Shown here one piece after another: positions 1,648 to 55,385 of a stretch of 64,000 nucleotides of DNA; the first letter of the stretch is position 1; every line of letters starts with the position of its first letter. The notes under the pieces are model-generated. The model searched no databases. It was given only the letters and a program-made list of their open reading frames with translations, and had not been told where the DNA came from. The position numbers were made by a program, and so were the translations under genes. Origin of the DNA: Podarcis cretensis. Its lineage: Eukaryota. The DNA lies in the NCBI GenBank assembly GCA_951804945.1, contig OX638155.1, positions 43,710,001-43,774,000 on the forward strand. The letters run 5' to 3'.

Positions 1648-1678
1648 TTAAAAATACAACTGTTAAAAAAATAAAGTA

Positions 1679-2709: not shown

Positions 2710-3065
2710 TAAGTATCTGTGGCAACAAATAAAGCATTTTCCCTTGCATGAAGTTGTCTCTTAGGTATATGGTTATATATATTCCACTGTGAGGAGGAAG
2801 CTATTCTACATGCTTTCAATTTCCATGCCCATTTTTATATAATAAAATACACTGATCCTCCTACTTGAGTGCTTATGCACAGGAACATAATGTGGGACTC
2901 TACCCTAAATACATCAAACGTACAATGCCCATTCATGAAAGGAGTCTTTTACATCTGAAGATTACTAGCAAGCAAAGCTATTTATTATAGTCATTATATG
3001 CAAACAGTTTTAGTTCTCCAAATTCACCTGAATTTATTTCATATGCCATCTCTGATTTCTCACAG

Positions 3066-3249
3066 GGCTGGGAGAAGGTTCTGCACTTCTTCATCCAGAC
3101 AGCAGGTCACACCCTCGATCATTAGAGAAGAGCGCGTGGAGAACTTTCAAGGAGTCACAGTGTCCTCACATGTTGAAACATCTTCATAATGGAGCCCGAA
3201 TTACTGTGCAAATGCCTCCTACTATCGAGGGACACTGGGTCTCCACCGG
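3066..3249 (+). CDS. APCDD1: APCDD1 coding exon 2 (end of signal peptide, start of ectodomain); not in the supplied ORF track
   Basis: Acceptor ttctcacag at 3057-3065, donor GTAAG at 3250. Manual translation (phase 1 start) [62 protein letters not shown] matches the vertebrate APCDD1 N-terminus as I recall it. 184 bp; ends in phase 2, which matches exon 3. Confidence 0.96.
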
Positions 3250-5936: not shown

Positions 5937-6468
5937 TTGTGAAGTAAGGTCGGGCCCAGAATTCATCACTAGATCCTACAGATTCTACCACAATAATACA
6001 TTCAAGGCCTATCAGTTTTACTACAGAGGTAACCGATGCACAAACCCAATCTATACCTTAGTTATCCGTGGCAAAATTCGCCTTCGCCAAGCATCCTGGA
6101 TCATTCGAGGAGGGACTGAAGCAGATTACCAGCTGCACAACATACAGATAATCTGCCATAGTGAGGCAGTGGCTGAGAGACTAAGTCAGTTGGTGAACCG
6201 CACATGCCCTGGATTTGTACCAGAAGATAAAGCCTGGGAACAGAATGTGAGCTACGATTTATGGAGAGAAGAGAATGGCTACGAATGTACCAGAGCACTG
6301 AATTTTGCTATGCATGAGCTTCAACTAATCCGTGTAGAGAAACAGTACCTTCACCATAATTTAGATCACTTGGTCGAGGAGTTATTTCTTGGAGACATAC
6401 ACACTGATCCTGCTCAGAGGATGTATTATCGTCCATCTAGTTACCAGCCCCCTCTTCAAAATGCTAAG
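5937..6468 (+). CDS. APCDD1: APCDD1 coding exon 3 (first APCDD1 domain)
   Basis: Inside ORF 5920-6549: [29 protein letters not shown]...[14 protein letters not shown]. Acceptor ttacag ends at 5936, donor AAG|GTATGT at 6469. 532 bp, phases compatible with both neighbours. Confidence 0.97.
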
Positions 6469-15847: not shown

Positions 15848-18800
15848 TCACTCCTCTATTTTACAACAGTTCTTAAGGTATACTTTAAACTTCTTTAAAC
15901 TTCTTCCAATCTTCCTCCACTGTCTCTTTCTCTTGGTCGCGGATTCTGCCGGTCATTTCTGCCAGTCCCATAAAGTCAATCACTTTTGTCTGCCATTCTT
16001 CCAGTGTGGGTAGTTCTTGTGTCTTCCAATACTTTGCTAAAAGGATCCTTGCTGCTGTAGTGGCGTACATAAAAAAAGTCTTATCCCTCCTTAACACCAA
16101 TTGGCCGACCATGCCCAGGAGAAATGCCTCCGGTTTCTTGTGAAAAGTACATTTAAGTACCTTCTTAATTTCATTATAAATCATTTCCCAGAAGGCCTTA
16201 ATCCTTGGGCAGGTCCACCAAAGGTGAAAGAAGGTACCTTCAGCTTCATTACATTTCCAACATTTATTATTGGGCAGGTGATAAATCTTCGCAAGCTTGA
16301 CTGGGGTCATGTACCACCTATAAATCATTTTCATAATATTTTCTTTTAAGGCATTACATGCCGTAAATTTAGTACCGGTGGTCCATAACTGTTTCCAGTC
16401 AGCAAACATAATGTCATGGCCTATGTCCTGTGCCCATTTAATCATAGCTGGCTTAACAGTTTCATCTATTGTATTCCACTTCAGCAACAGGTTATACATT
16501 CTTGATAAATTCTTAGTATTGGGTTCTAACAATTCTGTTTCTAGTTTCGATTTCTCCACCTGGAATCCAATTTTCCTGTCTTGTTTAAAAGTCTCCATTA
16601 TTTGATAATAATGGAGCCAGTCTCGTACTTTAGACTTTATTTTCTCATAGCTCTGTAGTTTAAATTTACCACTTTCTTGTTCTAAAATTTCAAAATATTT
16701 TGGCCATTTAGATTCCATGTTGAGTTTCTTCACCTCCTTGGCTTCCATAGGTGATAACCACCTAGGGGTTTTATTTTCCAACAAATCCTTATATCGAATC
16801 CAAACATTGTATAATGCTTTCCTAACAATATGGTTTTTGAATCCCTTATGTATTTTAACCTTGTCGTACCATAAATATGCATGCCAACCAAACCTATTAT
16901 CAAATCCTTCCAAATCCAGAATGTCTGCATTCTCAAGAAGTAGCCAGCAAAAAGCTGCTGATTCATAATACAATCTTAGGTCCGGCAGGGCAAACCCCCC
17001 TCTTTCTTTTGCATCAGTAAGTCTTAAATTTTATTCTGGGCTTTTTGCCCTGCCAGACAAATTTAGATATATCTTTCTGCCACTTCTTGAAGCAATCTAG
17101 TTTATCCACAATTTGTAATGTCTGAAACAAAAATAACATTCTAGGCAATACATTCATTTTGATCACTGCAATTCGGCCTAACAAGGAAAGCTTCAAGTTC
17201 GACCATATCTCTAGATCTTTCTTAACCTCTGTCCAACATTTATCATAATTATCTTTAAATAAATTCACATTTTTAAATGTCATGTTAATCCCCAAATATT
17301 TTACTTTCTTTGCCACCATTAGCCCAGTTTCATTTTGAAATTTCTCTCTTTCAACATTTGTTAAATTCTTTTCCAAAACTTTAGTTTTTTGTTTATTCAG
17401 CTTAAATCCTGCCACCTGACCAAAGATTTGGATCAACTCTAAAACTCTTTTTGTACTAGTGTCCGGCTCTTGTAAAGTCAATACTAAGTCATCTGCAAAT
17501 GCATTCAATTGGTACTGTCTGGCTCCGACCTGAACTCCTTTTACCAGCTGGTCCCCCCTAATCATATTCAACAGAACCTCCAGGACTGATATAAAAAGTA
17601 ATGGGGATATTGGGCACCCTTGCCGTGCCCCTTTTTCTATAGAAAGTTCATCAGTAACCACATTGTTTACAATTAACTTTGCCTTTTGTTCAGAATATAT
17701 TGCACCTATACCATTTTCAAACCTTTGGCCTACCCCCATCCCATGGAGATTCTTTTTCATAAAGTTCCAAGAAATATTGTCAAAGGCTTTCTCCGCATCC
17801 ACAAAAATCAACACTGCTTTTGTATTAATATTTACAGTTAACAGCTCCATAATGTCAATTATATTCCTTACATTCTCTGATAAATGTCTTCCTGGGAGAA
17901 AGCCTGCCTGGTCTTTGTGAATCTCCTCCACTAAAACCCTCTTCAATCTTTTTGCCAAAATATCAGCAAATATTTTGTAATCCACATTAAGTAATGATAT
18001 AGGGCGGTAGTTCTTAATCTGATTTTTTTCAGTTTCAGTCTTTGGTATAAGTGTAATAAAAGCTTCTTTCCACGATTCAGGTGCCTTTTTCCCCTCTAAT
18101 ATTTCGTTACAAACCTCCTTAAGCGGCTGTATTAGCCATTCCTTCAATGTTTTATAGTATCTGGAGGTTAGTCCATCTGGCCCTGGAGATTTCCCTAGTT
18201 GCATATTTTGAATGGCACCCTCTATTTCTTTATCTGTTATTTTCTCGTTTAAGATCAACATACTTTGTTGCGAAATTTTTTGTAATCCATATTTCTTAAG
18301 AAAATCTTCTATATCTCCTTCATTTTCTGGCCCTTGTGCATATAATCTTCTGAAATAACTCTGAAAACAATTGCTGATCTCATTTGGTTTAAAAATGTTC
18401 TTTCCATCCACCTCCAAACTTGTGACTGTATTTAATTTCTGTCTCTTCTTCAATTGCCATGCTAGAAGTTTCCCACATTTGTCCGCTGATTCAAATGACT
18501 TCTGTCTCATTTGCTTAATTTTCCATTCTATCTCCTGATTCATCAATTCCATATATTGCATCTGATAAAACTTGATTTCTCTCAGAATCTCATGAGACTT
18601 TGGTTTAGACCTCAATTTCTTTTCTCCTTCTTTTATTTTTTCCAAAATCTTATCTTTCTTCTCATTTTGTTTCTTTCTCTTTAAAGAATTCTGTTGTATA
18701 AGGAAACCTCGCATCACGGCCTTGCTTGCGTCCCAAATCACTCTTTTCTCAACCTCTGTCCTCAGATTTATCTCAAAATAGTCCTTCAAAGTTTTTGGGG

Positions 18801-19578
18801 CCTTTTTGTAAATCTCAACATCTTTAAATAGGGTGTCATTCATTCTCCATCTGAAGGAACCAGCTGTTGTCAGTTTCATTTCCATCTTCACTGCGTTATG
18901 GTCGGAGCATGTTTTTGGGCAGATTTCCACTTTTTTTATCCTTGGAGCCATTCCACTAGTAGTCCATATTTGATCTATTCTTGTCCATGTCATCTGTGCC
19001 TCTGAAAAGAATGTTCCCTCTCTCTCAAGAGGGTTTCTTGTTCTCCAGATATCAATCAAGTCCATATGTTCAGTCATTTCAAAGAAGGTCTTAGGTAGTC
19101 TCCCATCTTTAGAAACCACCTGTCTTTGTGCTTTATCCATGTTGGTAGAGACAACGCCGTTCATATCTCCTAACAAGATCACCTTGTAATCCAGATAGTC
19201 CATTAATGTCTCATGCAATTTCTTGTAGAATTCTGCCTTCCCTTCGTTTGGAGCATAAATGCCAACTGTCAAAATTTTTTCTCCTTGGATTTGTATCTCA
19301 ATTGCCAAAATTCTTCCATGTTCATCTTTAAAGATCAATTTTGGGGACAATTTCTCCTTTGCATAAATCACCACTCCTCTTTTCTTAACTTTATCCGACG
19401 AAATAAATTCCTGTCCTAATCTTTTGTTTATAAGCAATCTTCTGTGTACCCTTGTCACGTGGGTTTCTTGTAAGCATATCAAATCCAATTGTTCTCTTTT
19501 CAAAATATGAAATACCTCACGCCTTTTTCTGGGAAGGTTCAGTCCATTACAGTTCCAAGTTAGAAATTGCAGAGACAT
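15848..19578 (-). pseudogene. L1 ORF2p (APE endonuclease, reverse transcriptase, CCHC knuckle), disrupted by a frameshift at ~17022 and a 10-bp duplication at 15884-15903
   Basis: EN motifs WNCNGL, LQETH, GDMN, RIDQI, SDHN; RT motifs YRPISLLNVDYK, DAEKAFD, GARQGCPISP, FADD, KYLGI; CWKC..HLWWTC zinc knuckle. ORFs 17014-19578 and 15885-16973 join as KPRIKFK(x)LTDAKERGGFALPDLRLYYESA after one frameshift. Confidence 0.95.
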
Positions 19579-19584
19579 TATTGT

Positions 19585-20580
19585 TTAGTTACCTCCAGCC
19601 GCTCCCTGCGGCTGATCTTCTTCCGTTGGTGACTTGAGTCCAAAAGTCAAGTTTCCAAGATCTGTTTCAGACGTTGATTCTAACACTCCTTTCAAAAGGT
19701 CCTTCTCGTTTCTGTCCAGGAATTGTTCTTTATCTTGCACTGTTCTTATTTTGACTTTCTTTCCTTTGAAGTTGAAAGACAAACCTTGTGGAAATTCCCA
19801 CCTAGAAGGTATATTGTTCCTCTTCAGCAGGTCAACCAGATTCTTAAAGTATGTTCTTACCTCCAAAATATATTTAGGGATGTCCTTGTAAATCTGCACA
19901 GAGACATTTTGAATCTGAAGAGTTCTCTGGTAATGCAAGTTTAGTATTTTATCTCTTTCCTCTTTAGATCTCAAAGTTATCAGGCAATCCCTTGGGATCT
20001 TCCTGCCTTGCCTTCTGCCCAATCTGAAGGCAGTTGTTATCTTGAATTCTTCTTCCTCTAAGTTTACCTGCCAAAAATCTGAAAGTTCTTTTGTGAGAAA
20101 ATCCACTAGGTTGTCCCCTTCACTTTCAGGGACCAACCTAAATCTTAAATTCTTCTCTTTCCGTTGCATCTCCCATAAAGACAAGGCCGCCTCATGCTGG
20201 TCAAGCTTCTTACACACTGGTATTAGACTTTCCTGTGTGGTTTCTGCAGTTAGTTTAGCATCTTCCGCTATTTTTCGAATTGTAGCGTTTTCTTGGACCA
20301 ATTTGTTTATAGTCTCTGTATTAGATGTAATGCTCTTAGTGTTCAAGTCCAATTTTGTTGAAAGTTCTGTCAGTTGTTTAGTATTCTCTGTGCTCTGCTT
20401 TGTCAAATTTTCTAAAGATTCATTTATTTTAAGCAATGCTTGTGTCACTGAATCCATAAATGCGTTTATTCCCTTCTCCTGTCCAGCTGCGCCTGTTGAC
20501 AGTAAGCCTGTTATTGAGGCCCTTTTCTTTTGTGTTTTAACCTTAGATCTTGTTACTATCTCTTCTGCAGGGCCACTCAT
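19585..20580 (-). CDS. L1 ORF1p (331 aa; coiled coil, RRM, CTD), intact
   Basis: Heptad-rich N-terminal half, then RKEKNLRFRLVPE (L1 ORF1 RRxNLRxxGxPE-like), ...IYKDIP... and RWEFPQGLSF (L1 CTD-like). Lies directly upstream of ORF2. Confidence 0.9.
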   Translation of the reverse strand: MSGPAEEIVTRSKVKTQKKRASITGLLSTGAAGQEKGINAFMDSVTQALLKINESLENLTKQSTENTKQLTELSTKLDLNTKSITSNTETINKLVQENATIRKIAEDAKLTAETTQESLIPVCKKLDQHEAALSLWEMQRKEKNLRFRLVPESEGDNLVDFLTKELSDFWQVNLEEEEFKITTAFRLGRRQGRKIPRDCLITLRSKEERDKILNLHYQRTLQIQNVSVQIYKDIPKYILEVRTYFKNLVDLLKRNNIPSRWEFPQGLSFNFKGKKVKIRTVQDKEQFLDRNEKDLLKGVLESTSETDLGNLTFGLKSPTEEDQPQGAAGGN

Positions 20581-21229
20581 ATCCCAAGGTCGTTCCCACA
20601 GGAACAGCTTAAGTGGAAAAATCCAGTGACTTGTTTTTTAACAGACTATGTTACAGCTGTTACCTTTCAGCCCTCTAGAGGGAGCATCATTGTATCCAAT
20701 AAGCAAGCACAACAAAGAAACCCAAAGCCCTCAGAGGGGAGAAGTTTTTAACAACAGTCTTTCAATCTTTAAGTTGCAACAATGTTATTTCTATAGAGTC
20801 CAAGAGAACTGTATCCAATAAAGTCACCGCTTTGCGGCAGTTCTTGTCTGACAGTCTGACAGTCCCCTGTCAAAGTGCTTCACCCAGGCAGTCCGTTCCC
20901 AGAGTCAGAGACAGCAGGAATTTTCACTTAATTTTTCCTCTCATGCAGGTTAAAATTAGTTCCCTTTTCGTCCCCCCCTGCTCCTGCTTGCTGGGGGGGT
21001 AGTTCAAATTCATTGTCTAGGTTAAACAGTTCAAACAGTTCAGAGTTACTTTTCCTTCAATTGCAGCTTCTCGTGCCGTTGCTTTAAAAGTTCATGCAGT
21101 CCAGGGGAGGCAGACTTCCTTTATTTACCATCCCCACTTTCAGCCAAATTTCAATTATTTTAAAGTCCCGATAAGTTTTCCAATCCTACTTACGGGTGTT
21201 CAATTTCAGTCCAAATTTCAGGAAGGAAT

Positions 21230-30200: not shown

Positions 30201-30600
30201 TGACACTTTTTGCAAGTCTCCCAACAGCAACAGAAAGCAAACCACCACCACACTAGACAATTTTGTTACTCAGGGAGTGAGCAAAAAAGTGTTTGCTCAT
30301 TGTGGGGAGAATGGTTCTCTTGGCTGAGGTCACCTATCTCAGCAGTTCAGGAAGCCCTGTCCTCACTCTCAGATCAGCTTTGTTTTCCATGATGTCACCA
30401 CATTCGTACATTATCCCTGATTCAATAGGAAGAGAGGAGAAATGAATGGCAACGTACAGGCATACAAAGTGACCATAAAGATAAAATGGGTGATTTGCAA
30501 AAACAAAATGGCTACCTTGAGAGCTTGTTTTCTGGTACTGCTCAAATTATTGAGCATTGTTACCACACTGAGAATTCAGCAGTGTCATTAAATCTATGTA

Positions 30601-30849
30601 CAGTCGTACCTCGAAAGTCAAACGCCTTGTGAGTCTAACGTTTTGGCTCCCAAATGTCACAAACCCGGAAGTGTGTGTTTAGGTTTGTGGACGTTCTTTG
30701 GAACCCAAACATCCAATGTGGGTTCCGCGGGTTCCGATTGGCTGCAGGAGCTTCTGCAGCCAATCAGAAGCTGCACCTTAGTTTCTGAACATTTTGGAAG
30801 TCAAACAGACTTCTGGAACGGATTCCGTTCAACTTCTGAGGTACAACTG
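30601..30849. mobile_element. Tc1/mariner (Tigger-like) MITE, 249 bp
   Basis: TA-CAGTCGTACCTC...GAGGTACAACTG-TA. Central palindrome ttccgattggctgcaggagcttctgcagccaatcagaa. Confidence 0.85.
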
Positions 30850-30999
30850 TATCTGATTTACATTTTGCTCACTCTTAAAATGACATGATTATTTTCATCT
30901 AGTCAAAACAGAGAGCACTGCTACAAGAAATTCCCACAATAAGCCAACCATGTACCTTACTAGTGTTCCACTACTAAATGCTAGATCTGAGAGCATATT

Positions 31000-31283
31000 T
31001 ATTCAACTCACTAACTTGTGGACATTGTTCTAAGAGCCACTAGCTTAGATAAATTTAAAAGGGGATTGAGACACATTCAGAAGAGGATAGATCTGTTAAT
31101 AGTGATCAGTTATGATAGCTAAATGGTTTACAGGAAGCTTACCTGTGAAAAAGCAGTTGCTGTGGGCAAACAACGGGAATGGCTGTCGCTTGTACTTTTC
31201 TTAAAGTATCTGGCTAGGCACTGCTGGAACAGGATGCTGAACTAGAAGGGCCCAGGAACTAATGAGCAGGGCTCTTCTTATGA
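31000..31283 (+). mobile_element. CR1-like 3' fragment in APCDD1 intron 4
   Basis: gccactagcttagataaatttaaaaggggattg... and 3' end gctgaactagaagggccc...agcagggctcttcttatg. Confidence 0.55.
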
Positions 31284-31527
31284 CTTCACTTGCAACTCTT
31301 ACTGGTTTTGGTTTTAAACCCCTTTTTTCTTTCTTTCCATACGCTTGAGTTACTCTTCACATTTATAAAGGCTTAGTTCAGAAGCAAATGCTGTGTCTTT
31401 CAAGGTCAATGGGTTTAGAAACTTCTACAGAAGAGAATCAAGCTCTTCCTGAAATAGAAATCTGGCTGTTGACAAAAGCATATTACCTCAAGGCACAATT
31501 AACAGTCCCTTCTTTGTTTTTTTGCAG

Positions 31528-31979
31528 TGAATCATATGAAGGTTACACCCATGGACATAGCTACTGCCTCTCTACTGAATGTCTTCAATGGAAATGAGTG
31601 TGGGGCAGAAGGATCCTGGCAAGTTGGGGTGCAGCAAGATGTTACTCACACCAATGGCTGCATTGCTTTGGGAATTCGCCTGCCGCATACAGAGTACGAG
31701 ATCTTCAAAATGGAGCAGGATGCCAGAGGGAGATACTTGTTGTATAATGGCCAGAGACCTAGTGATGGATCCAGTCCCGACAGACCAGAAAAGAGAGCCA
31801 CCTCATACCAAATGCCCTTAATTCAATGTACTTCATCCGCACCAAGAGTAGATGAAACTTTAGAAGAAAACAAACTAGGATGGTACAGCAGTGGAGCACC
31901 AGCAAAAATTCCCTGTGCTTTTGTTTTGGTTATGATGCTGGCTGTTAGTACTGTGCCAACGTTGGGCATTTACAGCTAG
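31528..31979 (+). CDS. APCDD1: APCDD1 last coding exon (end of second domain, hydrophobic C-terminus, stop TAG)
   Basis: Acceptor ttttttgcag ends at 31527. (V)[33 protein letters not shown]...[12 protein letters not shown]...LGIYS, stop TAG at 31977-31979. Confidence 0.97.
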
Positions 31980-32500
31980 AACTGCATTTTCAAATGACTC
32001 CTATCAGGGCAAGTGTAGGACTTAGGCTACATGGGGAGATGTCATAAAGCATCTTAACAGACAAAAAAAGGACATTTTCTTGATGCCTGAAGAACTGTTG
32101 TTCCTTTTATCCTCCTTGAATCATGAATAGCACCAGTTTGCTTCTGCTTTGAACTTCATCCAATCTGATCCATGGCCTGACATGACTGCACAACAGTAAT
32201 TGCACTTTAAAACTGCAGTTCTTCACCCTTCAACCCTGCCTTCAGTTTGTTCTTTGGAAGAAAAACTTATTGGGCTGAACTATCTTACACAACTTTTCAT
32301 CTACCAACTGTGCTGTTGCAGTTGCCCCTACTCCCCAAATCAGTTTCATCTTTGAATTTGATTATCTAGAATTATGCTTTTATCGTATTGTGTCAATACT
32401 GATAAACTGCATTGTTCTTATGTTACAGTGTATATATGTATATATGAAAAATCCAACTAAGGATGTATATTAAATACACTTTTATAGAGTTTACATAAAA
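31980..32500 (+). promoter_or_regulatory. APCDD1: APCDD1 proximal 3' UTR with candidate miRNA/Pumilio sites and variant poly(A) signals
   Basis: Directly follows the stop codon. GCACTTTA 32202-32209, tandem TGTATATA 32429-32444, ATTAAA 32469-32474, CATAAA 32494-32499. The true 3' end cannot be fixed from sequence alone. Confidence 0.5.
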
Positions 32501-33083
32501 TATTACATGATCTTTAGGATCAAGAATGCTGAATGGAAAATCTCAAATTAAACCTGCACAGATAATTTAAATGATTGTATATATAGGTGGTGAATTTAAG
32601 AATAATCGGAGATTTAGAGTGACATATGGCGCCAATGTTCTTTAATAAGTTGCCCAACTTATCACAGTTCAAAGCAATTTCAGGGGTCCACCAACCACTT
32701 TCCACCAACTTTGAAAAAGCAAAGACAAAGGGAAGAAAGCAACAAGATCTCTCAAATATAGAAACCAAGGTGAATTACACCATATCTTCATAAGAAATTC
32801 AGGATAGTGGACAGTTTGCCAAATGCAATGCACTTGACATTCATTTTATTAGACTGGGCAATTCAATAAAGCAAGCAAGGCTTAATCTTGATATATTTAT
32901 TTTTGCAAGACTTTTTTTAAAGAATTCATAATAGGTTGTGGCAAAAAATGGAGTTTAACGAGGAGCAGGATGTTAGCCAAGTCTGTTTCCTTTTATTAGT
33001 GAAGTAGACAAACTGAATATTAAATGATTCCTTTTTTCACTGGGAATGGGACAGGGGGTCATGTAAACTCCATTGCTTTAAAT

Positions 33084-33198
33084 CAGGGACAGGGAAACCT
33101 ATCGCTTTCACATTATTGGACAGAACCCCAGCCAGCTTGGTCATTGATGATGGGAGTTTAGTCCAGCTACATCTGGAGGGACAGATTCCCCACTCCTG
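33084..33198. mobile_element. hAT-type MITE, 115 bp
   Basis: CAGG...CCTG ends with an exact 8-bp TSD ctttaaat at 33076-33083 and 33199-33206. Confidence 0.85.
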
Positions 33199-34071
33199 CT
33201 TTAAATTCACAGTAGCCTCTTTGCATAGTGCCACAATGACAAGGCCAGGAAACACAGAATCAAAAGATACTCTCCCTAAATACCATCTTATTTAAAACCA
33301 GCAGTTTGAAGAACAAATTATATCTTCTCTTTCATGCATGTGTATTCACATATAATTTATTGACATGTACAAGGGGGACAAGTTTCAAATCCACTGGTGA
33401 AAAATAGTCGTGGGTAAACCAAGCCACGGTGTTGGGTCCCTTAGTATAATAGGAAGTGTTCTGTGATAAAATACAAACTTACAAATTGGGACGCATGATA
33501 AGAAGGAAAGGAGCAATAAGAAGCTGCAGAGGGAAGGTGGCATAAAGAAACTTTTCTCCCTTCTGTACATAGAAGCATAAGATCAGAGTCTTCTATCAAC
33601 AAAGGGACACAACTATATACAACCTGTGGTAAGGCACAACAAACAGAAAGTGAAGGATGCAACTGAGTCTACAAAATCTCGGAAAAGGGACCATTCTTAC
33701 CAGCAGAATTATAGTTCTAATGTATAAACATTCACTGGAAGCTGCTGCCATGGGCTTGCTTTCTCCACTTATTTTTTATCATCTGCAGAAGTGAAAGGGG
33801 AACTCATTTATGCTGAAGTAAGCAGAGATACAATTCAGAGAGAGATCTTGTACTTTTGACAATGACAGTGAAAAGCACCATGTGCAACACCTGTATTTCC
33901 ACATCTGCCATAACTAGATGTGAGAAACCTCTGCATATATTTGGCTCTGGGCTGCAGATTCTTTGACTGTTCTGCCACAGGGTAGATTATGATTCCTGAA
34001 TTGGGAATCTGCTACAAAGCTTCACCTGTCCATCAGCCCTCCCTGAGGGCTCCTCCCTGAAAATAATAATC

Positions 34072-35930
34072 TCAGAATTGTAGAATTTGAAGGGACCCCA
34101 AGGGTCATCTAGTTCAGGAATATCAACTAAATCATACATGGCATATGGCTGCCCAACATCTACTTTAAAACCTCCAATATCCTCCTTAAATTGTGGTCCT
34201 CAGAACTGGGCACAATACTCCAGGTGTGGCCTGACCAAGGCAGAATAGAGCAGTACTTACTTCCCTTGATTTGCTCCTGCATAGCACTGATGAGTCATGT
34301 TAAGCTTGGGGGGGTCCTTTCCACACGTACTATTGACAAACCAGATGTCCCCCATCTTATAATTGTGCAGTTATTCATGCCTAAGTATAGAACCTTACAA
34401 TTGTCCTTACTGAAATCCGTTTAGGCCGTTTTCCAATCTTGTTAAGGTCATCTTGAATCCCGATTCCAATGGCCCCGAATACTTTCATCCAAGTCATTTA
34501 TAAAGATGTTGAAAAACAGGCCCAGGACAGAACCCTGTGGCATCCCATTTGTCACGTCTTTTCAGGATGACAAGAAACCATTAGTGAGTACTCTTTTGGT
34601 TTGGGCAGTCAACAAGCTGCAAATACACCTAACAGTTACCTCTTCCAGTCCACATTTTGCCAGCTTCTCTGCAAGAATATGAGGGACTTTTGTCAAAAGC
34701 CTTACTGAAATCAAGATACACTATGTCCACAGCATTCCCCTGATCTACCATGCTTGTTAAAAAATGACTCTTCTGGCATGACTTGCTTTTGAGATACACA
34801 TGCTGGGTCTTTGTAATCAAAGCATCTTTTAATTATCTGTTCTAGGGCATTTCCTGGTAAAATGTTAAGCTGACTGGTCAATAGTAACCTGGGTCTTCTC
34901 CCCACCCTTTTGAAGATGGGGACATTTGCCTGCCTGGAGAACAGGTGAAATATTTCTGCCTTCTGCAAAGACTTCATCTGTTCTCCAAGAATTCTCAAAG
35001 ATTATAGGCACAGGCTCTGATATCAAATGTGCAAGCTCCTTTACTAGTCTTGGGTGCAGCTCATCAGGCCCTGGAGATTTGAACTCCTTACCACCTGGTT
35101 TACTATGTTGAGCTGCAGCTCCCTCCTTGCATTGTTTGTTATGCTTTCATCAGGTTAGGCACTGGCTTTCCTTTTGGGTGAAGGCAGAGGAAAATAGGTG
35201 TTGATCAGTTCCGCCTTCTGTCACCCAATAGCATTTCTCTATCTTCTCCACGCAAGAGATCTACTACTTGCTTGTTCTTCCTCTTGCTTCAAACACAACC
35301 AAAGAAACTTATTATTATTTTAAACCTCTCTTGCAAGCCTGAGTTCATTCTGAGCTTTGGCCTGCCTGACCTTCTCCCTGCAACTGTATACTCTTCCTTC
35401 CTGATTTCTCCTTCCTTCCTTTTCTTATACATTCCCTTCTTACACATCAGCTCATCTGTAAGCTCCTTATGCAGCCACACCCGTTTAGGTGCCTCCCACT
35501 TTTCTTGTTGCAAATTGTCTGCATTTGTGCCTTCAATATTTCACCTTTAAGAATCACGTACTGGGCTCCATTCTCTTCTGAGTATTTCTGACCACAGTAG
35601 TTCCTTAAGATTTTTGAAATCAGCCATCTTAAAGTCCAGAATGCATGTCGGACTACACTCGGTTTTCTCTTGCCTCTGAGGACATGAGCAGTTCCTCCCA
35701 AGGTTCCCTGTACTTTCACTTCGTTGATCAGTTCCTCCCTGTTGGTTAGTACCAAGTCCCCTTGCTGCTGCTTCCACTTTCTGGGAAGTGAGGGAAGTGA
35801 AGAATTTGTTGGATGTTACATTATTAGCAGAGTTTGAGTTCCAACAGATACTGAAATAGGTGGAAGTCTCCCGTGACTATACCACTTCTTTTCAAGTTTG
35901 GTAAAGTGCTCTAGGAAGGCACCATCCAGG
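34072..35930 (-). mobile_element. Degraded, internally deleted CR1 LINE between the APCDD1 and VAPA 3' ends
   Basis: CR1-type 3' end on the minus strand (gaactagatgacccttggggtcccttcaaattctacaattctg). RT motif VDIVYLDFSKAFDK in ORF 34629-34820, LVLTNREELINEVKVQGTLG in ORF 35447-35755, and SPGPD-like/ANVPIFK segments. Confidence 0.88.
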
Positions 35931-36752
35931 TTTGAAGGCATGTTTGATTGGGAAGTTGGAACAGAGTAGAGCTGGGAGCAAGTTTGAGATTTTAAGGTGG
36001 TTGTATATTTGCATAAAACCAAGGGTGTGTGTTTTTTAAAAAGATATTTTATTTTTGTAACATTAAAAAACTATTTTTTCTTCCCAGTTTTCTTCTCTAG
36101 TTTAAAGTGCCAGGGAAGTTTCAGTACTTGTTGAAAATGTGATTAAATAAAGAGTAAATGAAACCAAAATTCTTGGAAGTCTTCTCAGTAGTTTTTTCTG
36201 TATTCAATAGTTGTATCCACCAAGCTGAAGAATTTTAACTATAAGCTCTTCCTGTGTCCATGTGCACAAAGTTTATATTTTATATTGAGTAACTATTATC
36301 TACAGCTGCATATCAGGCCATATAAAGTTAAATATAAATCTTGTTTGATAGCAAGTAGCAATTTAATATGAGTTAAATGGTTCATACACCATTAAGCTTA
36401 TATATTATAAACATATAGCTGGGGGGTAAGCATTCATTCTTTTTCTGAGAGATTTTTTCCCCAAAATCTCCAAACTGATCTTTAATTTCCCTTGGCATCA
36501 ACAATCAAAGACAATCCTGCCATGTAAGCTTTCATCCCTAACTAAATGGAGCCCAATACTTTTAAAAAGCTTCCCTTCAACATCAGTAATCACAAGTATT
36601 TCACTTGGTTTCTGAAAATCTGAAGCCACATTAGTTATGGGTCACACAGTGCAGCAAGTTGTAGGCACACAGAGAAAAAGTTTTCCCGCATTTACACCAT
36701 TCAGCAACTACTGCGCAAACCCCTAAACTGTCCATAGTGGTTTAATCAAGTA

Positions 36753-36936
36753 CAGACATGCCTTGGGTAACAGACGCTTCAGGTTGCGTTTCTTTGGAAG
36801 TACCTAAATCATGCTTTGCGCAGAAGCGCCAAATCGCAACCCGCGCACGTGCAGACGCGCCACTGCAGGTTTCGAACGCTGTGGGTTGCGAACGTGCATC
36901 CCGCACGGATCACGTTCACAACCCGAGCGCCCACTG
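36753..36936. mobile_element. Degenerate Tc1/mariner-type MITE
   Basis: TA-CAG...CACTG-TA ends; CpG-rich island in AT-rich DNA with repeated ggttgcg/cgcaacc motifs. The left TIR is diverged. Confidence 0.6.
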
Positions 36937-39900
36937 TAATGAACATACTTACCCATTACTTAATGCTTACACATTTATTTGCATTTTTAAGTTAACCCTT
37001 CTCAAGTCATCAGGGCAGATAATAGAAGCAAATTTTAGAAATGCAAATATAGTATGCATTTGCCTAAAATAGTTGGGATGTGGGAGACAAGCACAAGTCC
37101 CTGTTAAGAATCCAAAACCGCTCACAAAAATTAATTCAGATTGGAGGTTGCTGAAAGGCCTGCAATAAACATGATGTATAATAAAACATTGCCACCTAGT
37201 GGTAACATCTTGTCTCAACTCTGAAGAAGACTTCAAAAGTTAAGAGCTCTTTGGCCGCAAACACAAATGGAGAATAGTTATTTTTTGGGGATGGGGTATG
37301 AAACCCTGCTCCATGGAAAAAGTCAAGCAGGTTTTATGAGACTAAGGAACTACTATTTCAATATTAAGTCTCTCAAACATTGTTATAAGCTAGCTAGTTC
37401 TGAGATGTTCTGTTTAAAACTGATTGCAAATAGAAAACTCTGCTGCTGTGGGGGGATCACATTTTGAAGAAATCAAGTGAATTAGGTATTCTCATGTTCT
37501 TTTCAAAACCTCATAATAAAAGTACATCTATTGTTTACCTTTGTACATGTTCTCTTTCTCATAAAAACTTTTAATTCAGGAATGCAATGCAACGCAAAGT
37601 GGGTTAAGATAAGAATGCTATGAACAATTAAATTACATCTGAAAATGTGGGATATACTTTAACGTTTCATGTAATCTACATCCTAGTCAAGCAGTATTAA
37701 CTTTTTAAACTAGCCATTCTGGTACAGTGTAAAAGAGAATTAAAGTAACTTCTATCAACTCTTTCAAGCTGGCATACATATATACAAACTTCAGCAATTA
37801 GGAAAATTTCCAGGTCTCGGAAAGAATAGCTAATCAACAGCACTTTCTGCTTTCCAACTTTCAATTAAGGGAACCCAAAACAGTTCTTGGCAGTGTAGAT
37901 GACTAACACAGACATTCTGACGTCTTCTCATCTGCACTGAAACTACTTTCAAAGCCAACACTTTCAGTGATTTAAACCAAAACAGAACACACAATAAAAA
38001 GTTAAAGTAATTCAATTGCCTAGCATTAAAATGTAATTCAGCTCTTGAGTGTATCAACAAGTCTTGAAAGCCAGAATACAGTTTCGTAATTGCTCCGTTG
38101 ACTCCCATAAATGCTTTTCATAAGCCACTTTGCTACCAACACTTGAAAGGTTTGGAGCTTAACGTCAAGGACAGCATGTTGATGGTGCCCTGAACTTTCA
38201 GAAAAATGGTCTGCAAACCAATAGCATGCTTAAATAAAGTACTTTTTTCCATTACAGAGTAGAAACAGTTTGTTATATTCAGAACTTAATTACGGTGATG
38301 GAAAGCCAAGTCAAGAAGCAGTTGATAATTTTAATGATAATTTCACTGCTTTGGGTCGGGTGATTCACACAGCCAAATTTATCATATAATCCAACTAATG
38401 AAGCTTTTTATGTATCACAAATAAAACTTATACTATGAAAACAACTATTGTTGATAAGGGTCCCTCCAACAGGGCCTCAGTACTATGCAGAACTGCCTAT
38501 ATTAGTTCATTTCATTTAATCCAGTGATCCTAAGAGAGTACAGTAGAGAGAAGAGCCAATTTCAGCAGCTGTCAGACCAAATATCAAATATAAAAAGCAC
38601 TTTTCAGTGGAATGTAGTGTTGGCATATTCGTGGCTCTACCACTAAGCTTCTGCATTATCTTGTACAATTTTCTAAGTCGAAGCCTTAAATTTCAATACC
38701 TTTCCTGCTGTTTTCCCTATGTTCAAGGTGCGTTACAACACTTAGAAGAGTACGAGCCCATACTTTAAGAAAATCCTTAGTCTCAAGAGTGAGACTAGCA
38801 GATAGATTGTGTGGTCAAGGGAATGCATGCACACAATTTGCAGTGCTGAAGTACCCAGCAGATAGCATTCCTGGGCAACTAGCAAACAGCAGGCAGAAGG
38901 AGCTGAATCTGGGTTAACCACATTACGCTGGCTATTGAAGACCACTTTTATTTGAAGTATAACAATTTCCTCCCTCAGCAATTTCATGGGTCAACTTCAA
39001 ACAACCTACTTAGATATGCTGCATTAAAAATCAAAACTATTATGAACAAGGGGCCTAAGAATATATAGGGCCATGATGGGATCCAAAGTATATTTTAGTT
39101 TACAAATTGAAAGTTTAAAAATATGCAAATGAATATAAACAAAGTAAGCATTCTTCAGTTTACATTATTTGTCCTTATGTCAAGATTTCAATTTCCAAGC
39201 CCAACAAACAGCAGGTGGCAGCAAAGCAGACTAATAAGGTGGTAGAAGTGCAAAAGAGAAAATCCCAACTCAGGTCTCATCCCAAATAGAAAATCCAAAA
39301 TATCTATCAAAGCATTTGTGCCTATTAACCTGGTTATCCTAACCTCTCCCTTTCCCCCTCCTTTGTTCCCCCAACTGTAGCAGCTGTGATAAAATATTAA
39401 TATTCTCATTAATAACTACCTGGATTTGGTAGTTCCAAATCCACCATTAATATAGATTTTTCATATTACTGGTACCCAAGACACCTGATATATGTAATAC
39501 TTGATGCATCTGAATTCCACCAAATACAAAGAAATTACTTCCATTGTTTATGAACAAGTAGACATCCATATCTCAGGTAAGCAAACTGTTCAGTGTCCCT
39601 ATTTGACGCTTAAGACAAAAATCAACCACTAACGTCAATTTTCTCTCCATGGCTAAGATTTCTGAAGTTCAGAGTTTATGCTAACATAACCTTAAAGGCA
39701 AAATATTTTATGAGAATGTTTACTAGTAAAAATACTTTTATGTGAGCATGTTGAATTTGTAATCATTATGTCCCTTGTAGAAAAAGTTTCACTGATTTGG
39801 GGATATTAACTCAATTGTCTGAAAACATTTTGTGATAACCATAAACTAAAATATAGTGAACAGGTTTTTCTCCTTGGGGGGGGGGGGCAATCTATACACT

Positions 39901-40085
39901 ATGATGGACGGCAACTTCCATCAAAGCCTTTCTTGTGTAAGAAATAAAACTATTAGAAAACAAACATTCTTGAAAGACACCACCTATTCATCTTACACAC
40001 TTACAATATTAGGTACCAGCCCAGAATTTTTGCAGCAAGGTATCATTTGATAACCACCTGAGAAATTGCTAATATAACCAGGGTC

Positions 40086-40086
<1 letters not shown>

Positions 40087-40128
<42 letters not shown>

Positions 40129-40491
40129 TTATTATTTATAGCCCGCTCATCTGGCTGGGTTTCCTCAGCCACTCTGGGCAGCTTCCAACAGAATATTAAA
40201 CAGAATAAAACTTCAAACATTTAAAACTTCCCTAAACAGAGCTGCCTTCAGATGTCTTCGAAAAGTCAGATTGTTGTTTATTTCCTTGACATCTGATGGG
40301 AGGGCGTTCCACAGGGTGGGTGCTACTACCAAGAAGGCCCTCTGCTTAGTTCCCTGTAACTTGGCTTCTCGCAGCAAGGGAACCGCCAGAAGGCCCTCGG
40401 CACTGGACCTCAGTGTCCAGGCTGAGCAATGGAGGTGGAGACACTCCTTCAGGTATATTGGGCTGAGGCCGTTTAGGGCTTTAAAGGTCAG
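40087..40491 (-). mobile_element. L2-clade LINE 3' fragment with (TAA)n tail
   Basis: Highly similar to 8568-8895 (gccactctgggcagcttccaacag, ctgccttcagatgtctt, gaaggccctctgct). (TTA)n at 40087-40127. Confidence 0.8.
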
Positions 40492-43084
40492 TAATTCATC
40501 CTACAGGCAACGTTGTAGGAACAGTATGCGTGCACATCCTCAACCACCCATTCCAAAATTACTTGAAACTACCAGCCTTCTCCCAGCATGCTTAGAAACA
40601 AAAAAAATAACACCAAAAGAAAATGTGCAATGATTTCTCCATGCACAAATATAAAAACATTTCTCCAAACTAGATGTATTTGCTGAACATGCGAACAGAT
40701 TTTAAAGAGTTGGCCTGATTCTTCAGACCAGGTATTAATAGTCCAAAGCAGCAACTATGAAGTTTTATCATAATCCTATTGTGCACAATACCACCAATCT
40801 TAAGGCTTAGTTGGAAAGACTTCAACACCTTTACAAATTTTCAAAATAATTCATTTTTTACAATTAAACTAATAGCACCCACTTAAAGTATTGGGCTGCG
40901 GTAGTGTATCAGTCAACATTTAGACAACAAAGATATGTGCATTGGAATGTACACCTCAAACTTCATTTAATATTATGTTATCAGAGGCTTCCTTTTTAAA
41001 CTGATTAAACAGAGCTTCAACAATGCTTCTCTGCCACTTTATACTTACTGAGCAAAAGAAGGATACATAGTTTATTATCTGTTCATTCATCTGCTTCTTT
41101 TAGGCTGCCTATATAATTTGAAATACACAATGTTTTCTATCATAATTTGTATTCGGCTGTAATGTACACTAAGACATGTTACAAAGGCTTATGACTATCC
41201 AGGCTGCAGGATCAAGTAATTCACAACATACATGAAATCTAATGTTAAGGGGACAGAAGGTTCTCACACACACAGTTTTTTGACGCTTATTAGTAACAGG
41301 GACAGATTTTCCTCACATTTATGTACACAAGCAAGCAGGCAAAGTTCTAACCATTTCAGGAACAGACAATTTAATCCGTGTTACATAATTTCACTGAATA
41401 CAGTTGATATCATCCAAAATCACTCCTGAGAGCAAAAAAATAGTTTAGCATTACATTTTATATACAATTATGAAAGGATTATCAGAAACCAGAGGCGCAT
41501 CCATTTAAGGAGCACCGCACTTTACGTATACTGGACATGACGCCCAAATGCACCTTGACTTGTTCAATAATAGTTCTCTTTAAAACATATAATCCAACTA
41601 CATGGACCAACAGGCTCTCACTACTTAATTTATCACTTATTCAATATTTATGATAATCAGATGGTAGTCTCTGGATCGTCATTATTTTCTGACATCAGGA
41701 TACTTCTCAATATTAAGCTTCTAAATTCAGTTTGCCTTTGATGAATTATTCTCTAATCTCTAACCCTAAAATGTGTAGCTATTACTACAAACCTTTGTAT
41801 ACACTCCTTTAACAGTAAATGTAACTTTTAAATTTTCTCCTTCCCTATAGAAATATCCAAATGCATCCAGAAGTTACAGCCTGTACATTAGCCCCCCCTC
41901 CCCCTGTAATCTTCCAATGGTCAAGTTCCTTTAAGGAATAAATGATTTCTTCTGACGTACCATTTATACACCACAGTATGGAGAGTCTTATGGTTTCAGA
42001 ACTGATGAAATGAGAATCAGACTTGAGCATACTTTTTCCAGTCACCATGGTCAGAGAAGACTTGAATGCAGATACCAGAACACATAAAAAGAAAACGTCT
42101 GTATTTGCATGCTTTTAAAGTGAAACATCATGCAATGGTTTGATCATCTTCTTCTTTGCAAATTGCATGTGTTATAAAAGTTTGCCAGAGACAGCAGTGA
42201 CAGTACATGATGTATATTTTCCAATAAAAAAGCACTAGAAATCAAAGGCAACCAATATGTATATTTTTGCTAGAACATTTCTCAGCTACATAAGATCGAA
42301 CAGTTAGCTGCATCCATATCCAAGAATATACAAAATTCTGCCTACAGGAATAAGCCTTTCAAGAATGTCAGTTCTGAAATAACTCCCTATGGTAGCTAAC
42401 AGTTAAAAATAGCTAAGTATTGTGCTTTCAAAATTATCTACTTAATGACATAGAGATCAGAAATGAAACAAGCCACGAGGTTAAGTGAGGAGAAGCAGTT
42501 CAGACCCAACAAAATAAACTTTCTAGAACATAGAAGGTATGCATAGCTAATGGGCAAGTGTGCCAAGACATATTTGCTGGACGAAACTTTATTTACCTTT
42601 CATATAACTAAACGATAAAAGATTGCTCAGCTGGAATCAACCTAAGGTACTTAAGGAAAAATTATTTGGAAAGGTCACACAGAATGTATTTCCAGAAAAC
42701 ATCTGGACTAGTCAGCCTGAATGTAAAATTATTGATCATTAAAGGACTACTGGGGACTCCAGATAAGGGAGCATCAATAAATCAACAGAAATATACCTAT
42801 TTGATACCTGCAAAGTCCATCACTATTTTAAAAGACAAGTTTAAAATACCTGCCTCTCATAATTAGTCCCATGTCCCAAAACAGAACTAATTCTAACCCT
42901 TCATTTTGCTTAAAAAGCCAGAAACCTTTTCTGCCGCTGTTAAATAGTATGGAAACAGCTATGTTTCTTCCAAAGCTTCGCTGGCACCAGTTCAAGCCAC
43001 AGCTAGTGAACTGAACATTCATCTGTGACAAGGTTATGTGTAAAACTTGAAGGAAAACTTTTCTCAGAGTGGAATTCACAGAAA

Positions 43085-43710
43085 CAAGCTACCCAGCATA
43101 AAGTATGTTAACAGTTTTATTTTTTTGTATGTTAAATACCATGGGACAGGGCTGTAAGGATGAAAACTTTAACAACTGCCTCACAAGGGGTAAGAAATTC
43201 TGCCATGATATTAGCAAAGTAAGGTAAAGGATAAAATTTACACACTAAGAGGAATCATTTCCCCGCAGAATGCCTCATCATATTCCTGAACAAGTGGGAT
43301 TAACATTCTAATAATCATTTTCCAAGAGGCAAGAGCAACAGATAATTTTTTTAAAGGATTATTAAAATAACATTTACAAGACTCTGAACAATTTTTGAAC
43401 TCTTATTAAAACCACAGAAAGAAAGAACAATTCTTTATTTATGTATGACTTTTCATAAAGGACTGAATGTGCAACTGACACCTGCTATTGATGAATTAAT
43501 ATACAATTTGTCCAGCAGCCGACCAGTTTGTCTTTTTATTGTGTTGTCTAACCGTGCAAGATCATTAGAGGCAAAGCCTGTATGATGCTGTACACAATAA
43601 TGGTCACTTGGGGCCATACTACCAATGAAGTGGTAGGTAAATACATTTTTTTCTGGCCAAGAAAAAAAAGGAAGCTGCATTCTGCATGCTTCTCTCTCTT
43701 TTTCCCCTCT
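43085..43710 (-). promoter_or_regulatory. VAPA: VAPA proximal 3' UTR with three AATAAA signals
   Basis: Minus-strand AATAAA at 43535-43540, 43434-43439 and 43116-43121; the last is followed by a GU-rich stretch (tagcttgtttctgtg). Confidence 0.7.
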
Positions 43711-43866
43711 CTACAAGATGAATTTCCCTAAAAAGAATCCAATGAAAATGGCTGCAATTACAACAAGAAGTGAGGGAAGAGGATTGGAGACATTATCTCG
43801 GAGAGCCAAGCCTGATGTTCCAGGTTTATCCAAGTGTGCCACCTTTCTCAGCCTCAAACCTTCATC
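43711..43866 (-). CDS. VAPA: VAPA last coding exon (tail-anchor transmembrane helix, stop TAG)
   Basis: [51 protein letters not shown], with GxxxG (GFFLG). Acceptor gttttcag. Confidence 0.97.
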
Positions 43867-47033: not shown

Positions 47034-47210
47034 TCTCAGATGTCTGTTTTCCTCTGATAGTTTCACCACATCCGCCTGAAGTCTTTTGCATTCTTCCACT
47101 AGCTTCCTTGTTTCGGTGTCATTAAGCGAAACACTGTGTGGTTTTGGCATTGGACCATCCTGCTTAGCTGTATTCAGTATTGGAGCAGATTTGCTTGCAT
47201 CTATGTCATT
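47034..47210 (-). CDS. VAPA: VAPA coiled-coil exon
   Basis: [59 protein letters not shown]. Acceptor atttgcag, donor AGA|GTAAGT. 177 bp, phase 0/0. Confidence 0.96.
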
Positions 47211-52285: not shown

Positions 52286-52366
52286 CAGCTTATCATTTTC
52301 ATTAGGCATTTCAAATACACATCTCAATTTGGAGTCCATTAAGTCATCAGACTTTGCATCCTTCCA
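52286..52366 (-). CDS. VAPA: VAPA coding exon 4 (end of MSP domain); not in the ORF track
   Basis: Manual translation [27 protein letters not shown]. Acceptor tgtcctag, donor CTG|GTAAGT. 81 bp, phase 0/0. Confidence 0.96.
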
Positions 52367-53712: not shown

Positions 53713-53816
53713 CACTGCTTCCATATCTGTAATGTTTGAGGGGGCAAAGATTGTCTGTACCATAAACTTATGTTTACTCTTCTCATTTGGATCATAGTCA
53801 AAAGGCTGTAACATCA
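53713..53816 (-). CDS. VAPA: VAPA coding exon 3 (MSP domain); not in the ORF track
   Basis: Manual translation (V)[34 protein letters not shown]. Acceptor tatacag, donor GTG|GTAAGT. 104 bp. Confidence 0.96.
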
Positions 53817-55232: not shown

Positions 55233-55385
55233 CTGATACAGTTACAGAAGAACCTGGGTCAATAATTCCACTGTTTGGCCTCACACAGTATCGACGAGGT
55301 GCTGTAGTCTTCACTTTAAAACATACTTTTCTGTCCGATGGATTTCGTAATTTAAGATTTGTAGTGACTACATCTGTGAAGGGAC
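55233..55385 (-). CDS. VAPA: VAPA coding exon 2 (MSP domain)
   Basis: (G)[50 protein letters not shown], containing the VAP consensus [16 protein letters not shown]. Minus-strand acceptor tttcag, donor CAG|GTAAAA. 153 bp. Confidence 0.97.

What the first reader, a model, noticed from the sequence alone, without database searches (positions are those of the whole stretch)
31979..43711. APCDD1 and VAPA are tail-to-tail only ~11.7 kb apart: probable inversion breakpoint relative to the mammalian arrangement
Seen: the APCDD1 stop (+, 31979) and VAPA stop (-, 43711) converge, with only UTRs, a decayed CR1 and MITEs between them. Recalled knowledge: on human 18p11.22 both genes are on the same strand, VAPA upstream, roughly half a megabase apart across a gene-poor region, and NAPG is the 3' neighbour of APCDD1. 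Inference: APCDD1 and its upstream regulatory desert were flipped as one block, with one breakpoint inside this interval (most likely ~32.5-37.5 kb, where the CR1 lies). Such an inversion would keep the enhancer desert with APCDD1 and place the two 3' UTRs face to face, which could allow read-through overlap.
Basis: partly seen in the sequence, partly recalled or inferred. Interest (0 to 1): 0.7.

Follow-up and report, generated by a model that had tools for sequence, protein, structure and literature searches.

The report
Ancient APCDD1-VAPA tail-to-tail gene pair
In this reptile genome APCDD1 and VAPA face each other 11.7 kb apart, and the duplicate gene block on another chromosome has the same layout, so this is likely the old vertebrate arrangement and the half-megabase inversion likely happened on the line to mammals, not here.

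Summary
APCDD1 (+, 515 aa, stop ends 31979) and VAPA (-, 248 aa, stop ends 43711) are intact and convergent, with 11,731 bases between the stops. The human layout differs as recalled: same strand, about 0.49 Mb apart. The duplicate block on contig C6 has the same order and strands over five gene pairs: PIEZO(+), APCDD1L(+), VAPB(-), RAB22A(-), PPP4R1-like(+). Its stops are 8,472 bases apart, and about 144 kb separate APCDD1L from the STX16-like gene upstream. That duplication predates the reptile-mammal split, so it serves as an outgroup. Chicken holds APCDD1 and VAPA within one 140-kb interval (strands not seen). The convergent layout is therefore most likely ancestral, and a mammal-line inversion flipped [desert + APCDD1]. 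The CR1-like element is a poor breakpoint marker: RNA-like contigs flank it on both sides. A 3' UTR overlap is not shown. Verdict: an ordinary ancient gene order; the mammalian inversion is a modest side finding.

The parts
3066..3249 (+). APCDD1 exon 2 (exon 1 lies upstream of the window, ATG at G000:C7:43703515)
5937..6468 (+). APCDD1 exon 3
   Evidence: Pfam APCDDC 272.6 bits; PDB APCDD1 378 bits
26924..27245 (+). APCDD1 exon 4
31528..31979 (+). APCDD1 exon 5, coding part, with stop TAG
31980..37670 (+). probable long APCDD1 3' UTR running through the LINE-like element (end inferred, weak)
   Evidence: unstranded RNA-like contigs of two studies cover most of this stretch to 37461 / 37669; AATAAA at 37515 and ATTAAA at 37627
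34068..35900 (-). decayed reverse-transcriptase-type LINE fragment (CR1 label recalled)
   Evidence: repeat-masked; its six longest local matches are 68-74% identical; no Pfam match on its frames
36751..36938 (.). short element with TACAG...CTGTA ends (MITE label recalled); skipped by an RNA-like contig of a relative
   Evidence: contig 12 of run X17 jumps 36734 to 36936
37670..40460 (.). probable true intergenic gap between the two transcript ends (about 3 kb); likely ortholog of the site where one mammalian breakpoint fell (inferred)
   Evidence: only low-depth RNA-like contigs (4-9) here against 52-217 on the APCDD1 side and 165-329 on the VAPA side; weak, since contig depth cannot show level or ends
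40075..40491 (-). high-copy repeat tail (L2-like label recalled) with a TAA microsatellite
   Evidence: 37 local matches, longest six 82-85% identical
40462..43710 (-). probable VAPA 3' UTR (end inferred, weak)
   Evidence: RNA-like contigs cover 40462-43050 and 41116-43050; AATAAA on - at 41076
43711..43866 (-). VAPA exon 6, coding part, with stop TAG
47034..47210 (-). VAPA exon 5
52286..52366 (-). VAPA exon 4
53713..53816 (-). VAPA exon 3
55233..55385 (-). VAPA exon 2, MSP domain (exon 1 lies beyond the window, ATG at G000:C7:43779818)
   Evidence: Pfam Motile_Sperm; PDB best match VAPA

Best explanation
APCDD1 and VAPA end 11.7 kb apart on opposite strands, as their duplicates APCDD1L and VAPB do on another chromosome of the same genome, so the layout is likely inherited from before that duplication, and the human same-strand layout likely came from one inversion on the mammalian line. 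The inferred ancestral block is PIEZO(+) ... trafficking gene(-) | gene desert | APCDD1(+) >< VAP(-), RAB(-), PPP4R1(+). The inferred inversion had one end just beyond the NAPG promoter and the other in the short 3'-3' gap between APCDD1 and VAPA. It would have turned the desert and APCDD1 round as one unit, keeping APCDD1's upstream regulatory DNA with it and breaking no gene. The LINE fragment and short elements are likely later insertions into an old interval. The two transcripts probably end about 3 kb apart.
For: Shown: (1) Five gene pairs match exon by exon between C7 and C6 in the same order and on the same strands: PIEZO, APCDD1, VAP, RAB, PPP4R1-like. Random order and strand would give this about 1 time in 1900. 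(2) The C6 stops (14586208 + and 14594681 -) are 8,472 bases apart. (3) The gene-poor stretch is on the same side on both: NAPG ATG to APCDD1 ATG 176,246 bases; STX16-like ATG to candidate APCDD1L ATG 143,973 bases. (4) The duplication predates the reptile-mammal split. C7 exons match VAPA (106 vs 92.8 bits), RAB31 (69.3 vs 50.2), APCDD1 (378 bits) and PIEZO2 (160.5 vs 139). C6 exons match VAPB (105.2 vs 90.7) and RAB22A (65.7 vs 53.5), and match APCDD1 only at 227 bits. [quoted passage not shown] PIEZO2 and PIEZO2L are listed as ohnologs in paralogon 10 (PMC8040251 supplement). Chicken APCDD1 and VAPA share a 139.88-kb interval whose gene list lacks NAPG (PMC10035218 Table 4). Human and mink have the other layout.
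Against: No strand was seen for chicken or for any turtle, amphibian, fish, marsupial or monotreme. A 140-kb interval does not rule out a shrunken desert between the chicken genes. The chicken NAPG position (GRCg6a) and the interval (Galgal5) are on different assemblies. A paralog outgroup can mislead if the C7 block inverted early and flipped back in squamates. Damas et al. list no breakpoint at human chr18 9.9-10.6 Mb among 323 human-lineage regions (5 of 323 on chr18, none there). That fits a pre-crown-mammal event but is not positive evidence for any inversion. No read or contig spans the whole interval. No colinear duplicated non-coding elements were found between the two deserts. No gene tree was built.
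Confidence: 0.87

Rival explanations
1. Reptile-lineage inversion: the human layout is ancestral for amniotes, and a squamate inversion with a breakpoint at the CR1-like element brought the two 3' ends together.
For: The layout does differ from human and mink, and a decayed LINE lies in the interval. No non-mammalian strand data were seen.
Against: It needs an early inversion plus a later reversal that restores the layout of the duplicate block over five genes. Chicken has the genes within 140 kb. RNA-like contigs run from the APCDD1 last exon into the LINE and go on beyond it, so APCDD1-side sequence seems to lie on both flanks.
Confidence: 0.08
2. Misassembly: the junction between the two 3' regions is an assembly artefact.
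For: No listed contig spans the whole interval. The LINE interior and the repeat near 40.1-40.5 kb are not bridged by any piece shown.
Against: DNA contigs of a second organism (run X9) tile 30823-34513, 35821-36841 and 36909-40078 colinearly. The joints and loose ends shown all fall in repeats, though 453 joints and 4536 loose ends were not shown. No N occurs in the window or the fetched flanks that were checked. An artefact would not be expected to recreate the layout of the duplicate block.
Confidence: 0.02
3. The pair is kept tail to tail because the 3' UTRs overlap and regulate each other by antisense read-through. This can hold together with the ancestral reading.
For: Both duplicates have kept a gap of only 8-12 kb between stops. 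Low-depth RNA-like contigs (4-9) cover most of 37.6-40.4 kb in 2 of 2 RNA-like runs laid.
Against: The contigs are unstranded and their RNA status is a guess. Intron bins show depth 1-3 in the same runs. The higher-depth blocks stop about 3 kb apart, near polyadenylation signals. The two paralogous intervals share only short matches, the two best inside the LINE. Mammals lost the pairing.
Confidence: 0.1

Closest known systems
PIEZO3-NPEPL1-STX16-APCDD1L-VAPB-RAB22A synteny block (human 20q13.32; PMC13228305, abstract, passages and one results section read; figures not seen)
   Same: Paralogous genes in the same order and on the same strands as the C7 block, with a tail-to-tail APCDD1-type/VAP-type junction and a long gap upstream of the APCDD1-type gene.
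   Different: C6 carries NPEPL1- and STX16-like genes where C7 carries NAPG. The paper's text gives order only, not strands, and links piezo2 with napg and apcdd1 without naming VAPA.
Human 18p11.22 VAPA-APCDD1 interval (PMC2994810, passages)
   Same: The same neighbouring genes.
   Different: Same strand and about 0.49 Mb apart; the desert lies between VAPA and APCDD1 rather than between NAPG and APCDD1.
Evolutionary breakpoint interval chr18 9.95-10.44 Mb, VAPA|APCDD1 (PMC2681463, supplementary table, part 3 of 3 read)
   Same: A synteny break is recorded between the same two genes.
   Different: It is scored in the first 2 of 6 species columns (second = mouse and first = rat, inferred; header not seen), a later and separate event. 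The other four columns are blank, and I did not read how the method treats small inversions.
Genomic regulatory blocks: a developmental gene with its enhancer desert, flanked by housekeeping genes (recalled concept)
   Same: A signalling regulator with a long upstream gene-poor stretch, bounded by trafficking genes; the inferred inversion moves gene and desert together.
   Different: No conserved-element array or chromatin domain was tested here.

Membership tests
Ohnologous (whole-genome-duplication) microsynteny block | Several paralog pairs on two chromosomes | tested here: met
   PIEZO, APCDD1, VAP, RAB and PPP4R1-like pairs on C7 and C6. The PPP4R1 name is recalled; Pfam gave no match on 2 of 2 exons.
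Ohnologous (whole-genome-duplication) microsynteny block | Same order and orientation | tested here: met
   5 of 5 pairs; gaps between stops 11,731 and 8,472 bases.
Ohnologous (whole-genome-duplication) microsynteny block | Duplication older than the lineages compared (reptile vs mammal) | tested here: met
   Best PDB matches split A/B in both directions for VAP and RAB, and by score for APCDD1. That the PDB chains are mammalian is recalled.
Ohnologous (whole-genome-duplication) microsynteny block | Dates to the 1R/2R duplications | not tested
   No tree was built; taken from PMC13228305 and the PMC8040251 supplement, both for the PIEZO genes.
Squamate-lineage inversion breakpoint | Layout differs from the outgroup state | tested here: not met
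   It matches the paralog outgroup, and chicken proximity agrees; chicken strand not seen.
Squamate-lineage inversion breakpoint | Homology switch inside the interval against outgroup genomes | not testable with these tools
   No other vertebrate genome is held (no relatives).
Squamate-lineage inversion breakpoint | Repeat marks the junction | tested here: inconclusive
   The LINE-like element has RNA-like cover on both flanks, which argues against a junction, but its interior is not bridged.
Overlapping tail-to-tail sense/antisense pair | Convergent genes | tested here: met
Overlapping tail-to-tail sense/antisense pair | 3' UTRs overlap | tested here: inconclusive
   Unstranded contigs; higher-depth blocks end about 3 kb apart with low-depth cover between.
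Genomic regulatory block | Gene-poor stretch beside a developmental gene | tested here: inconclusive
   176 kb lie between the NAPG and APCDD1 start codons. No gene was recognised there, but the screens were only a paralog comparison and a list of long frames read by eye.
Genomic regulatory block | Array of conserved non-coding elements within one chromatin domain | not testable with these tools
   No outgroup alignment or Hi-C; the desert-to-desert comparison gave 26 scattered matches on mixed strands.

The most novel reading that the evidence does not exclude
An unremarked inversion on the mammalian stem flipped the APCDD1 enhancer desert. It broke a VAP/APCDD1 tail-to-tail junction older than jawed vertebrates, swapped the desert's two boundaries, and so rewired this Wnt inhibitor of hair follicles around the time hair arose. 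The same interval was then broken again in rodents. That a mammal-line inversion happened is likely (about 0.85). Its stem-mammal date is less sure (about 0.5), and a regulatory effect is speculation.
Probability: 0.07. Interest if true: 0.7.

Novelty: new member of a known kind. Interest (0 to 1): 0.25.

Why it matters
It turns the finding round: this window most likely keeps a very old gene junction, and the rearranged genomes are the mammalian ones. That gives comparative work a probable example of a developmental gene and its desert inverting as one intact unit, with the ancestral state readable in reptiles and in the gene's own duplicate. Such inversions are a known kind of event, and nothing here shows a functional effect, so the value is modest.

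Tried and rejected
1) Pfam SNAP search of the genome missed NAPG on C7 (8 matches, on C3 and C8). NAPG was found by recalled short motifs and confirmed by a PDB match to gamma-SNAP. 2) Search for duplicated non-coding elements between the two deserts: 26 matches, not colinear, mixed strands, read as low-copy repeats. 3) Comparison of the two stop-to-stop intervals: 4 short matches, the two best in the LINE. 4) Pfam on 6 frames of the repeats in the interval: no family. Rfam on 31980-43000: none. 5) Strand data for chicken or other non-mammals: not found in the supplements of PMC10035218 (both files unreadable pictures), PMC8672471 or PMC8040251 (no APCDD1/VAP rows; file cut), nor in the text of PMC4046983. 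6) The Damas conserved-block table, searched by six coordinate prefixes, showed no chr18 row; this is uninformative. 7) No sequencing run is on record as RNA for this stretch (no RNA holder listed); the two runs used as RNA are guesses. 9) Earlier scan notes: nothing that bears on gene order. 10) No WCGPC motif (recalled thioredoxin site) was found in the repeat-unmasked C7 stretch, so no TXNDC2-like gene was seen; one motif is a weak test. One search was too loose to use.
Full report
Setting. The window is G000:C7:43710001-43774000 of a 1.51-Gb assembly in 51 contigs, and no relatives are held. I read it as a lizard-type reptile. [quoted passage not shown] I did not test the species.

Observation. 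Both genes are intact. APCDD1 has five exons and 515 aa, with its stop ending at 31979 on +. VAPA has six exons and 248 aa, with its stop ending at 43711 on -. The stops are 11,731 bases apart. PDB matches name them: APCDD1 378 bits and VAPA 106 bits against VAPB 92.8. The interval holds a decayed LINE-like fragment, a short element with TACAG...CTGTA ends and a high-copy repeat tail. The labels CR1, MITE and L2 are recalled; Pfam matched 0 of 6 frames from them, and Rfam found nothing.

Neighbourhood on C7. The order is PIEZO2(+), ending near 43.4985 Mb; NAPG(-), ATG 43527269; 176,246 bases with no gene recognised by my limited screens; APCDD1(+), ATG 43703515; VAPA(-), ATG 43779818; RAB31(-); and a PPP4R1-like gene(+) (name recalled).

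Mammalian layout. In human one locus lies 73 kb downstream of VAPA and 421 kb upstream of APCDD1, so the genes share a strand about 0.49 Mb apart (PMC2994810, passages). A supplementary table gives the gap as chr18 9.95-10.44 Mb (PMC2681463). In mink, RAB31 is at 182.13 Mb, APCDD1 at 182.66-182.69 Mb and NAPG/PIEZO2 from 182.74 Mb (PMC9690368, passages). A cattle region of 621 kb lists RALBP1, RAB31, TXNDC2, VAPA and APCDD1 (PMC7288235, passage); it fits but does not discriminate. The human strands of NAPG, PIEZO2 and RAB31 are recalled.

Polarity. The same genome holds a duplicate block on C6. After local repeat masking, translated comparison matches five gene pairs exon by exon in the same order and on the same strands: PIEZO(+), APCDD1-type(+), VAP(-), RAB(-), PPP4R1-like(+). 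The other matches in that call were scattered and read as repeats. The C6 stops are at 14586208(+) and 14594681(-), 8,472 bases apart. NPEPL1- and STX16-like motifs (recalled probes) lie on - between the PIEZO gene and APCDD1L. About 144 kb separate the STX16-like ATG from a candidate APCDD1L ATG, so the long gap is on the same side as on C7. The C6 exons match VAPB (105.2 vs 90.7 bits) and RAB22A (65.7 vs 53.5), while the C7 exons match VAPA and RAB31. The duplication is therefore older than the reptile-mammal split, and C6 is an outgroup for reptile C7 against human 18p. It sides with the reptile. [quoted passage not shown] One sentence in that section attributes the piezo2/piezo3 linkage to 3R instead, at odds with its discussion. 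Lamb's tables list PIEZO2 and PIEZO2L as ohnologs of paralogon 10 (PMC8040251; supplement rows only). A chicken region listing gives the same C6 order (PMC12159700, passage).

Chicken. A 139.88-kb interval on GGA2 (98,444,389-98,584,269, Galgal5) lists one LOC gene, APCDD1 and VAPA, and not NAPG (PMC10035218, passages). NAPG intron 2 is at 98,063,070 on GRCg6a (PMC7866652, passage). This favours the reptile layout in birds, but strands were not seen and the two assemblies cannot be compared directly.

Timing. Damas et al. list 323 breakpoint regions on the human line since the mammalian ancestor; 5 are on chr18 and none lies at 9.9-10.6 Mb (PMC9550189, dataset S7 read whole; main text not read). 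If the inversion is real, this fits a date before crown mammals, but a block this small could have been missed. The 2009 table scores a break in this interval in 2 of 6 species columns, inferred to be the rodents. That would be a second, later break.

Reads. The search listed 24 runs, 20 holding part of the stretch. I laid 4 of them on 30501-43050. DNA contigs of the same organism label (X4, possibly not independent of the assembly) and of another organism (X9) tile the interval colinearly, with breaks at repeats. No piece spans it, and many rows were not shown. Two RNA-like runs of a relative, from two studies, show higher-depth contigs from the APCDD1 last exon or just past it, on both sides of the LINE, to 37461 and 37669. 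Low-depth contigs (4-9) follow to about 40.4 kb, then higher-depth contigs from 40462 or 41116 onward. Polyadenylation signals lie at 37515 and 37627 on + and at 41076 on -. These contigs are unstranded, their RNA status is a guess, and they cannot show ends or levels. They are a weak hint that the LINE sits inside the APCDD1 3' UTR and that the transcripts end about 3 kb apart.

Mechanism. Shown: the convergent layout here and in the duplicate, and the different layout in human and mink. Inferred: the ancestral state is convergent, and one inversion on the mammalian line, with ends in the two short flanks of [desert + APCDD1], produced the human state without cutting a gene. Untested: that the desert holds APCDD1 enhancers, that read-through occurs, and that the inversion changed expression.

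In print. I found no paper stating this inversion. The terms APCDD1, VAPA and inversion gave 0 papers. With synteny there was 1, a list of neighbours of chicken BG0. With strand there were 7, of which I read passages of two. The library omits most subscription papers, figures are not held, and bioRxiv supplements are closed. The synteny figure of the Piezo3 preprint may already show the strands, and any genome browser would. PMC13338623, PMC4046983 and PMC8672471 were seen as passages only and added nothing on strand.

Verdict. Interest 0.25.

Noticed in passing
window 15888-20637 (-), APCDD1 intron 3: A near-complete LINE: a 350-aa frame, an 856-aa frame with endonuclease and reverse transcriptase (Pfam RVT_1 128 bits, Exo_endo_phos 58 bits) and a following 381-aa frame after a frame change. 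Looks young; the L1-type label is recalled.
   Followed up: partly
window 1677-2710, APCDD1 intron 1: A GC-rich insert with a 118-base unit in 3.6 tandem copies (2056-2476, 90% matches); by eye its ends look like the inverted ends of a non-autonomous DNA transposon. It mimics a CpG island.
   Followed up: partly
window 36751-36938: This short element is skipped by an RNA-like contig of a related organism (run X17, 36734 to 36936), so it is probably present in some relatives and absent in others.
   Followed up: partly
G000:C6:14343441-14349008 (+), loci L045: The 3' end of a third PIEZO gene with open frames, lying beside NPEPL1- and STX16-like genes as described for Piezo3.
   Followed up: partly
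G000:C6:14684619-14710981 (+): A paralog of the PPP4R1-like gene with many open, well-conserved exons (34-94% identity). The human counterpart PPP4R1L is recalled as a pseudogene, so this copy may be intact in reptiles.
   Followed up: no
G000:C7:43826387-43826499 and C6:14641564-14641677: A short similar stretch on the same strand in both blocks, near the RAB genes; it could be a low-copy repeat or a duplicated non-coding element.
   Followed up: no
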